Positions 6,245 to 6,289 of a DNA stretch of 41,323 bases are shown here, in pieces. A program made the translations under genes and the position numbers. Below the pieces are notes generated by a model that saw nothing but the letters and a program-made list of their open reading frames with translations, was not told where the DNA came from and did no database searches. Each line of letters starts with the position of its first letter. Position 1 is the stretch's first letter. This DNA is from Escherichia coli (GTDB lineage Bacteria; Pseudomonadota; Gammaproteobacteria; Enterobacterales; Enterobacteriaceae): the NCBI RefSeq assembly GCF_003334405.1, contig NZ_QOWM01000024.1. The stretch is one strand, 5' to 3'.

Positions 6245-6260
6245 TAGTCCACTCTTCTAA

Positions 6261-6283
6261 GCCCGGTCTTGCCGGGCGTTTTT
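6261..6283 (+). terminator. terminator-like hairpin plus T-run between fmt and rsmB (possible attenuator)
   Basis: GCCCGG-tcttg-CCGGGC (6261-6277) followed by GTTTTTAT; lies just upstream of the rsmB ATG at 6290. Confidence 0.45.
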
Positions 6284-6289
6284 ATACTT

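What the first reader, a model, noticed from the sequence alone, without database searches (positions are those of the whole stretch)
6245..6289. Terminator-like hairpin between fmt and rsmB, overlapping the frame-extended rsmB ORF
GCCCGG-tcttg-CCGGGC followed by TTTTTAT sits 17 bp after the fmt stop and ends 7 bp before the ATG chosen for rsmB. It argues against the upstream in-frame ATG at 6269 as the real start. It also suggests partial termination, so that rsmB and trkA are made at lower levels than def and fmt.
Basis: seen in the sequence. Interest (0 to 1): 0.3.

Follow-up and report, generated by a model that had tools for sequence, protein, structure and literature searches.

The report
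Partial terminator between fmt and rsmB
The hairpin is a real, strongly conserved Rho-independent transcription terminator after the E. coli fmt gene that lets some transcription through to rsmB and trkA; two published RNA 3'-end maps already record it, so it is ordinary.

Summary
The window is E. coli chromosome (def-fmt-rsmB-trkA-mscL). The hairpin exists as described: GCCCGG (6261-6266), loop, CCGGGC (6272-6277), then GTTTTTAT (6278-6285). It starts 16 nt after the fmt stop, and its T-run ends just before the rsmB ATG at 6290. One detail is wrong: the codon at 6269 is TTG, not ATG. Two independent published datasets map RNA 3' ends in the T-run: MG1655 3435199 (window 6282; Adams 2021) and 3435201 (window 6284; TRS 2023). 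Both class it as the primary fmt 3' end, and it is absent from the Rho-termination table. In 80 Enterobacteriaceae species the 12 stem bases are invariant and the T-run is nearly so, while neighbouring spacer and synonymous sites vary freely. The loop varies, TTG is not conserved, and ATG is the rsmB start in all 80. Termination looks partial. No consensus promoter lies between the hairpin and trkA. Read-start density is about 3.6-fold lower on trkA than on fmt. rsmB and trkA also have weak Shine-Dalgarno sequences. More distant relatives have overlapping fmt/rsmB genes and no hairpin.

The parts
4698..4727 (+). Promoter-like site upstream of def (CTGTCA-18-TAGAAT), the likely source of transcripts that reach the terminator
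   Evidence: Consensus scan. It is the only promoter-like site on the + strand between 4698 and 8978. That it is the def-fmt operon promoter is an inference.
5297..6244 (+). fmt coding sequence (GTG start, TGA stop at 6242-6244)
   Evidence: ORF list; RefSeq annotation.
6148..6148 (+). Reported transcription start site inside the 3' end of fmt (MG1655 3435065)
   Evidence: Listed as 'Nearby TSS' for the fmt 3' terminus in TRS Supplementary Data 4. No consensus promoter was found there. Not verified further.
6245..6260 (+). 16-nt linker between the fmt stop and the stem; the sequence varies but the length is fairly constant
   Evidence: Per-column entropy is 0.8-1.6 bits in the 8 nt before the stem. 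The length is 16-19 nt in 70 of 80 species.
6261..6277 (+). Terminator stem-loop: GCCCGG(U) / loop / (G)CCGGGC
   Evidence: Fold -13.7 kcal/mol. The 12 core stem bases are invariant in 80 species. The seventh pair covaries.
6269..6271 (+). In-frame TTG (not ATG) that starts the mechanically extended 436-aa ORF; not a real start
   Evidence: It is TTA in E. coli lineages SaT040, Ecol_542 and E2865. It is not conserved across species.
6278..6285 (+). U-tract (GUUUUUAU) where transcripts end
   Evidence: Six of the 8 nt after the stem are T in 74 of 80 species. The T positions are invariant or nearly so.
6282..6284 (+). Experimentally mapped RNA 3' ends (MG1655 3435199 and 3435201)
   Evidence: Adams et al. 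2021, Supplementary file 1. TRS 2023, Supplementary Data 2 and 3. Coordinate offset.
6290..7579 (+). rsmB coding sequence (ATG start, 429 aa), with a weak Shine-Dalgarno sequence
   Evidence: RefSeq; PDB 1SQF; ATG in 80 of 80 species. The anti-SD duplex is only -3.2 kcal/mol.
7601..8977 (+). trkA coding sequence, 21 nt after rsmB, also with a weak Shine-Dalgarno sequence
   Evidence: SD duplex -3.7 kcal/mol. Read-start density about 0.25 per nt against about 0.9 for fmt.
8979..9011 (+). Stronger hairpin after trkA, with mapped 3' ends at 9008-9011; this ends the readthrough transcripts
   Evidence: Scan; fold -18.1 kcal/mol, z -7.8; TRS primary trkA terminus at 3437925-3437928.

Best explanation
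This is a canonical intrinsic (Rho-independent) terminator inside the def-fmt-rsmB-trkA gene cluster. RNA polymerase coming from the def promoter transcribes the GC-rich inverted repeat. The nascent RNA folds into a 6-7 bp hairpin while the weak rU:dA hybrid of the GUUUUU tract sits in the active site, and a fraction of polymerases release the transcript there. That gives def-fmt mRNAs ending about 8 nt before the rsmB AUG. The stem is short and the U-run has only five consecutive U, so the rest read through and make rsmB-trkA mRNA, which ends at the stronger hairpin after trkA. Together with the weak ribosome-binding sites of rsmB and trkA, this sets lower output for the two distal genes. What is shown: the hairpin, its extreme conservation, and in vivo 3' ends in the U-tract. 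What is inferred: that those ends arise by termination rather than trimming, that termination is partial (roughly 70% at most from one dataset), and that this lowers RsmB and TrkA protein levels.
For: Sequence and fold. In vivo 3' ends lie at window 6282 (Adams 2021 Term-seq, in two of three condition sheets) and 6284 (TRS 2023, 'Primary' fmt, adjusted p down to 1e-60 or below). These are 5-7 nt past the stem, as expected for intrinsic termination. No Rho-termination region is listed on the + strand between 3432288 and 3438536. Conservation: the stem is invariant and the T-run nearly so in 80 Enterobacteriaceae species. By contrast, third-codon positions next door have 1.1-1.2 bits of entropy and the linker 0.8-1.6 bits. 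The loop-closing pair switches among AU, UA, UG and CG. Partial termination: no promoter-like site lies between 4728 and 8977 on the + strand, so rsmB and trkA need readthrough. Read-start density is 0.84-1.01 on fmt against 0.25 on trkA. SD duplex energies are def -6.4, fmt -5.9, rsmB -3.2 and trkA -3.7 kcal/mol.
Against: Term-seq cannot tell termination from 3' exonuclease trimming back to a stable hairpin. The T-run overlaps the rsmB translation initiation region, so part of its conservation could serve translation rather than termination. The 3.6-fold fmt/trkA ratio comes from read starts in one study. It assumes equal mRNA stability and no internal promoter, yet a TSS is reported at window 6148. 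The 3' end is not listed in the Adams sheet that by order is LB OD 2.0. No protein-level or full-length-transcript data for rsmB or trkA could be obtained.
Confidence: 0.85

Rival explanations
1. The hairpin is mainly an RNA stability element. Transcription runs on into rsmB-trkA, and the mapped 3' ends arise when 3'-to-5' exonucleases or endonucleolytic cleavage trim longer transcripts back to the hairpin. This leaves a protected def-fmt mRNA that outlives the distal part.
For: Term-seq and TRS report steady-state 3' ends, not nascent release. The stem is far more conserved than a generic terminator needs. The lower trkA signal would also follow from differential decay.
Against: The 3' ends lie 5-7 nt past the stem, inside a U-run. 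Exonuclease stalling would not need a U-run, yet the U-run is invariant in 80 species. The two mechanisms are not exclusive, because terminator hairpins also stabilise the transcripts they end.
Confidence: 0.08
2. The terminator is a translation-coupled attenuator. The stem starts only 16 nt after the fmt stop codon, so a ribosome that closely follows RNA polymerase to the end of fmt hinders hairpin folding and promotes readthrough. Poor fmt translation or uncoupling increases termination. rsmB-trkA transcription would then report on translation status.
For: In a reporter system, terminator efficiency at 17-18 bp from the stop codon ranged from about 0.12 to 0.8 and was controlled by the upstream ribosome, reaching its maximum only beyond 30 bp (Li et al. 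2016). The stop-to-stem distance is 16-19 nt in 70 of 80 species although the linker sequence is not conserved.
Against: There are no direct data for this locus. Ten of 80 species have distances of 8-13 or 22 nt. No conserved alternative (antiterminator) pairing exists, the linker varies and Rfam finds nothing. A short linker may simply reflect compact gene packing.
Confidence: 0.05
3. The TSS reported inside fmt (window 6148) and the terminator together define a short RNA of about 135 nt, a 3'-end-derived small RNA. The hairpin would be conserved as that RNA's terminator and protein-binding module.
For: A TSS at MG1655 3435065 is listed 134 nt upstream of the 3' end. Read starts in the fmt 3' UTR exceed those in the CDS 3-4 fold, but the gene was not flagged as an outlier.
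Against: No consensus promoter is present at 6148. There is no Rfam match. The U-run has only five consecutive U. By my recollection Hfq-dependent sRNA terminators have seven or more, which agrees with the abstract of PMC5558911 listed. The region upstream of the stem is ordinary fmt coding sequence.
Confidence: 0.02

Closest known systems
Canonical intrinsic (Rho-independent) terminators of E. coli
   Same: A GC-rich stem-loop is followed directly by a U-run. RNA 3' ends lie in the U-run in vivo. The site is not in the Rho-dependent set. It acts on one strand only; the reverse strand has no T-run after the stem.
   Different: It lies at the weak end of the range: a 6-7 bp stem at -13.7 kcal/mol, five consecutive U, and G as the first tail base in K-12. 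The thrL attenuator listed in the same TRS table has -23.4 kcal/mol and nine U.
Internal partial terminators that grade expression within operons (from my own knowledge, not checked here: the terminator between rpsU and dnaG in the rpsU-dnaG-rpoD operon, and the attenuator between rplL and rpoB)
   Same: It sits between co-oriented genes of one cluster. The distal genes have no strong promoter of their own and so depend on readthrough. The distal mRNA level is lower.
   Different: Readthrough at fmt-rsmB has not been measured directly, and no factor-dependent modulation is known. Here the U-tract doubles as the leader of the next gene, ending 8 nt before its AUG.
Ribosome-proximity-sensitive terminators (lambda tR2 reporter series of Li et al. 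2016; the pyrBI attenuator cited there)
   Same: The stop-codon-to-hairpin distance (16 nt) falls in the range where the trailing ribosome modulated termination in that study.
   Different: That behaviour was shown on engineered constructs and has not been tested for this locus. There is no leader peptide here, only the end of a full-length gene.

Membership tests
Intrinsic (Rho-independent) terminator | GC-rich RNA hairpin of about 5-14 bp | tested here: met
   7-bp stem with 6 G-C pairs, -13.7 kcal/mol, z -2.3 to -3.4.
Intrinsic (Rho-independent) terminator | U-rich tract directly 3' of the stem | tested here: met
   GUUUUUAU has 6 U in 8, five of them consecutive. Six of 8 are T in 74 of 80 species.
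Intrinsic (Rho-independent) terminator | Transcript 3' ends in the U-tract in vivo | tested here: met
   Found by look-up of published data: 3435199 (window 6282; Adams 2021) and 3435201 (window 6284; TRS 2023).
Intrinsic (Rho-independent) terminator | Independence from Rho | tested here: inconclusive
   The site is absent from the table of bicyclomycin-sensitive Rho termination regions in Adams 2021. Absence from a significance-filtered list at a modestly expressed locus is weak evidence.
Intrinsic (Rho-independent) terminator | Release of RNA by purified RNA polymerase in vitro | not testable with these tools
   Needs a single-round in vitro transcription assay.
Partial (readthrough) intra-operon terminator | Downstream co-oriented genes are expressed from the upstream promoter through the terminator | tested here: inconclusive
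   No consensus promoter lies between 4728 and 8977. trkA read-start density is about 28% of fmt. However, a TSS is reported at 6148, and no full-length transcript data were found.
Regulated attenuator or riboswitch (terminator/antiterminator switch) | Conserved alternative structure or ligand- or leader-peptide-sensing element upstream of the terminator | tested here: not met
   The 16-nt linker is not conserved. There is no Rfam match even at E-value 1. The upstream sequence is fmt coding sequence.
Hfq-type 3'-end-derived small RNA | Own 5' end plus a terminator with a long U-tail (seven or more U) and a stable short transcript | tested here: inconclusive
   A TSS is reported at 6148, but the U-run has only five consecutive U, no promoter consensus is present and no short-RNA data were found.

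The most novel reading that the evidence does not exclude
The hairpin is more than a passive leak valve. Its invariant stem, its fairly constant 16-19 nt distance from the fmt stop codon and its fixed 18-nt distance to the rsmB AUG would make it a translation-coupled attenuator. The ribosome finishing fmt would decide whether RNA polymerase terminates. Synthesis of the 16S rRNA methyltransferase RsmB and the K+ uptake protein TrkA would then track how tightly translation follows transcription.
Probability: 0.06. Interest if true: 0.45.

Novelty: already known. Interest (0 to 1): 0.1.

Why it matters
It matters little beyond annotation. It confirms that def-fmt and rsmB-trkA are separated by a leaky terminator, which helps explain graded expression within this translation-related cluster. 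It fixes the rsmB start at the ATG at 6290. It also shows why automatic gene callers sometimes produce N-terminally extended RsmB models (438-490 aa) that begin inside or upstream of a terminator hairpin. The invariance of a 6-bp stem across a whole bacterial family is a tidy example of purifying selection on a minimal terminator, but it opens no new question.

Tried and rejected
- **Rfam:** no family matched 4500-9500 at E-value up to 1. The only gathering-level hit in the whole window is the alpha-operon RBS at 13522-13633.
- **Covariation:** six of the seven pairs never vary, so only the loop-closing pair is informative.
- **Protein levels:** the Mori 2021 tables were truncated before rsmB and trkA, and Li 2014 is not held.
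- **Start-site profiling:** the TetRP supplement has no rsmB entry.
- **Full-length transcripts:** the SMRT-Cappable-seq supplements hold nothing for fmt, rsmB or trkA, and no Choe 2022 supplements are held.
- **Original operon papers** (PMID 8432722, 1624424): not held. Whether they described this hairpin could not be checked.
- **Literature searches** for fmt/rsmB/trkA with 'terminator' found nothing specific.
- **Phyletic range:** the homolog search returned only Enterobacteriaceae at 84-99% identity, so other Enterobacterales families remain unsampled.
- **Rejected readings:**
  - Chance hairpin: ruled out by conservation and the mapped 3' ends.
  - Bidirectional terminator: the minus strand has no T-run after the stem.
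  - TTG at 6269 as a start codon: it is not conserved and lies inside the stem-loop.

Full report
**What the window is.** The 801 bases around the finding match all 5,426 complete E. coli genomes, many at 100%. RefSeq annotates dprA (-), then def, fmt, rsmB, trkA and mscL on the + strand. In window coordinates, fmt is 5297-6244 and rsmB is 6290-7579 (429 aa). trkA is 7601-8977 and mscL starts at 9107. MG1655 coordinates equal window coordinates plus 3,428,917.

**The observation.**
- The sequence reads TGA (6242-6244), a 16-nt linker, GCCCGG (6261-6266), TCTTG, CCGGGC (6272-6277), G, TTTTT (6279-6283), ATACTT, then ATG (6290).
- As RNA it forms a 7-bp stem with a 3-nt loop at -13.7 kcal/mol. 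That is z = -2.3 in 51-nt context and -3.4 in 31-nt context.
- The terminator scan lists it. The full motif occurs once in the window against 0.03 expected by chance.
- The reverse strand has no T-run after the stem, so the element acts on one strand only.

**Experimental evidence already in the literature.**
- Adams et al. 2021 (eLife, PMC7815308), Supplementary file 1, lists a Term-seq 3' end at 3435199 (+), classed 'primary' for fmt. The flanking sequence is identical to the window, so this is window 6282, the fourth U of the run.
- That 3' end appears in two of the three condition sheets. By their order these are LB OD 0.4 and M63.
- Their table of Rho-dependent termination regions has no + strand entry between 3432288 and 3438536.
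- The TRS study (Nat Commun 2023, PMC10687069) calls a 3' terminus peak at 3435195-3435207 with dominant position 3435201 (window 6284). It is classed 'Primary' for fmt, shows the same hairpin, and has adjusted p-values down to 1e-60 or lower.

**Conservation.** I fetched the rsmB locus from 80 GTDB species of Enterobacteriaceae, with RsmB 79-98% identical to the query.
- Every junction has GCCCGG, a loop, CCGGGC and a T-run. The exception is L087, where the fmt frame appears broken and the 3' arm reads CCGGC.
- The twelve stem positions have 0-0.1 bit of entropy. The tail consensus is ATTTTTATTTTT, and most T positions are invariant.
- For comparison, third-codon positions in the adjoining 63 nt of fmt and rsmB have 1.1-1.2 bits. 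The 8 nt before the stem have 0.8-1.6 bits.
- Because the six core pairs never vary, they cannot show covariation. The seventh, loop-closing pair does vary: AU 15, UA 13, UG 13, CG 4, unpaired 29. Only 1 of 500 shuffles reaches the observed covariation score.
- The stop-to-stem distance is 16-19 nt in 70 of 80 species. The stem-to-ATG distance is 18 nt in 67 of 80 and 12 nt in the K-12-type Escherichia sequences, which lack one TTTTTA unit.
- Within E. coli the stem is invariant. The loop G6271 is A in some lineages.
- A variant with a 6-nt longer tail, ATCTTTATATTTATACTT, was seen in both genomes fetched from the 90-95% identity band, which holds 1,025 of 5,426 genomes. In that variant the U-run is interrupted.

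**The element is lineage-restricted.** Three more distant RsmB relatives (51-57% identity) still have def-fmt-rsmB-trkA. In two of them fmt and rsmB overlap by 4 nt (TTGA and ATGA). The third is an AT-rich genome with a 57-nt spacer and no GC hairpin. A fourth relative (50% identity) sits in a different gene context with no fmt upstream. Families between these and Enterobacteriaceae were not sampled.

**The rsmB start.**
- The ATG at 6290 is the RefSeq start, and it is the first residue of the solved structure 1SQF/1SQG.
- It is ATG in 80 of 80 species.
- The upstream TTG lies inside the stem-loop and is TTA in several E. coli lineages.
- It has no conserved counterpart: 38 of 80 species have no upstream in-frame start at all.
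- Some automated gene calls in public data are 438-490 aa, so they do extend into or past the hairpin.

**Partial termination.**
- No promoter-like site is found on the + strand between the def promoter-like site (4698-4727) and the site after trkA (8978). rsmB and trkA therefore need readthrough.
- In TRS Supplementary Data 4, read starts per nt are 0.85, 1.01 and 0.84 on fmt against 0.25, 0.245 and 0.25 on trkA. This is about a 3.6-fold drop.
- If stability were equal and no other promoter contributed, that drop would mean roughly 70% termination. This estimate is an inference from one dataset.
- A TSS at 3435065 (window 6148) is listed nearby and could add transcripts.
- rsmB and trkA also have weak Shine-Dalgarno pairing, -3.2 and -3.7 kcal/mol. 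The values for def, fmt and mscL are -6.4, -5.9 and -9.0. Lower distal output probably has a translational component too.
- Readthrough transcripts would end at the stronger hairpin after trkA (8979-9006, -18.1 kcal/mol), where 3' ends are mapped at window 9008-9011.

**Mechanism and rivals.** The best explanation is a weak-to-moderate intrinsic terminator acting as a leak valve inside the cluster (confidence 0.85).
- Exonuclease trimming to a protective hairpin cannot be excluded from steady-state 3' ends. The invariant U-run and the position of the ends 5-7 nt past the stem favour termination.
- A more interesting possibility is ribosome-modulated termination. Li et al. 2016 (PMC4824070) found that at 17-18 bp from the stop codon, terminator efficiency ranged from about 0.12 to 0.8 and depended on the upstream ribosome. 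The distance here is 16 nt. Nothing tests this at the locus, and no antiterminator structure is conserved.
- A short RNA running from the 6148 TSS to the terminator is possible but unsupported.

**Verdict.** It is already recorded in two genome-wide 3'-end maps and is an ordinary kind of element. Novelty: already known. Interest: low.

Noticed in passing
window 5342-5371 (+), inside fmt codons 16-24: A strong intragenic hairpin, GCAGCGCGTC-ATCTC-GACGCGCTGT (-21.5 kcal/mol, z -5.4), is followed by published RNA 3' ends at MG1655 3434286-3434288 (window 5369-5371). Both datasets report them; TRS calls this an alternative primary end for def. In 79 species the stem is kept (median -22.2 kcal/mol). 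Synonymous positions in the stem are nearly fixed, while the third base of the loop codon CTN varies. This suggests a selected RNA structure that gives def-only transcripts or a pause site.
   Followed up: partly
window 6148 (+), MG1655 3435065: A transcription start site is reported inside the 3' end of fmt, 134 nt upstream of the terminator 3' end (TRS Supplementary Data 4, citing Thomason 2015). No consensus sigma-70 promoter was found there. It could be a weak internal promoter for rsmB-trkA, the 5' end of a short RNA, or a processing site.
   Followed up: no
window 6278-6289 and E. coli loci L002, L003 (spacer): The terminator tail varies in length by one 6-nt unit within Escherichia. K-12-type strains have GTTTTTATACTT (stem to ATG 12 nt). 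Both genomes fetched from the band that holds about a fifth of complete E. coli genomes have ATCTTTATATTTATACTT (18 nt, U-run interrupted by C). Most other genera have ATTTTTATTTTT plus 6 nt. Termination strength may therefore differ between E. coli lineages.
   Followed up: partly
window 6278-6292 and 7580-7603: Neither rsmB nor trkA has a recognisable Shine-Dalgarno sequence (anti-SD duplex -3.2 and -3.7 kcal/mol). rsmB starts AUG AAA AAA after an A/U-rich leader that is also the terminator U-tract.
   Followed up: partly
public RsmB gene calls (P0151, P0154, P0158, P0193, P0202, P0215, P0222, P0231): Several automated RsmB protein models are 438-490 aa instead of 428-429. They are N-terminally extended into or beyond the terminator hairpin, the same pitfall as the 436-aa ORF in this window.
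   Followed up: no
window 13522-13633 (-): Rfam Alpha_RBS (RF00140, 102.7 bits) is the known S4-binding regulatory element of the alpha ribosomal protein operon. It is the only gathering-level Rfam match in the window.
   Followed up: no
window 9514-9732 (-) and about 9581 (+), MG1655 3438431-3438649 and 3438498: The mapped mscL 3' end (3438498, + strand) lies antisense inside arfA. Adams 2021 lists Rho-termination regions on both strands here (3438536 + and 3438487 -). MG1655 also annotates an arfA-derived small RNA (yrdG) at this spot.
   Followed up: no
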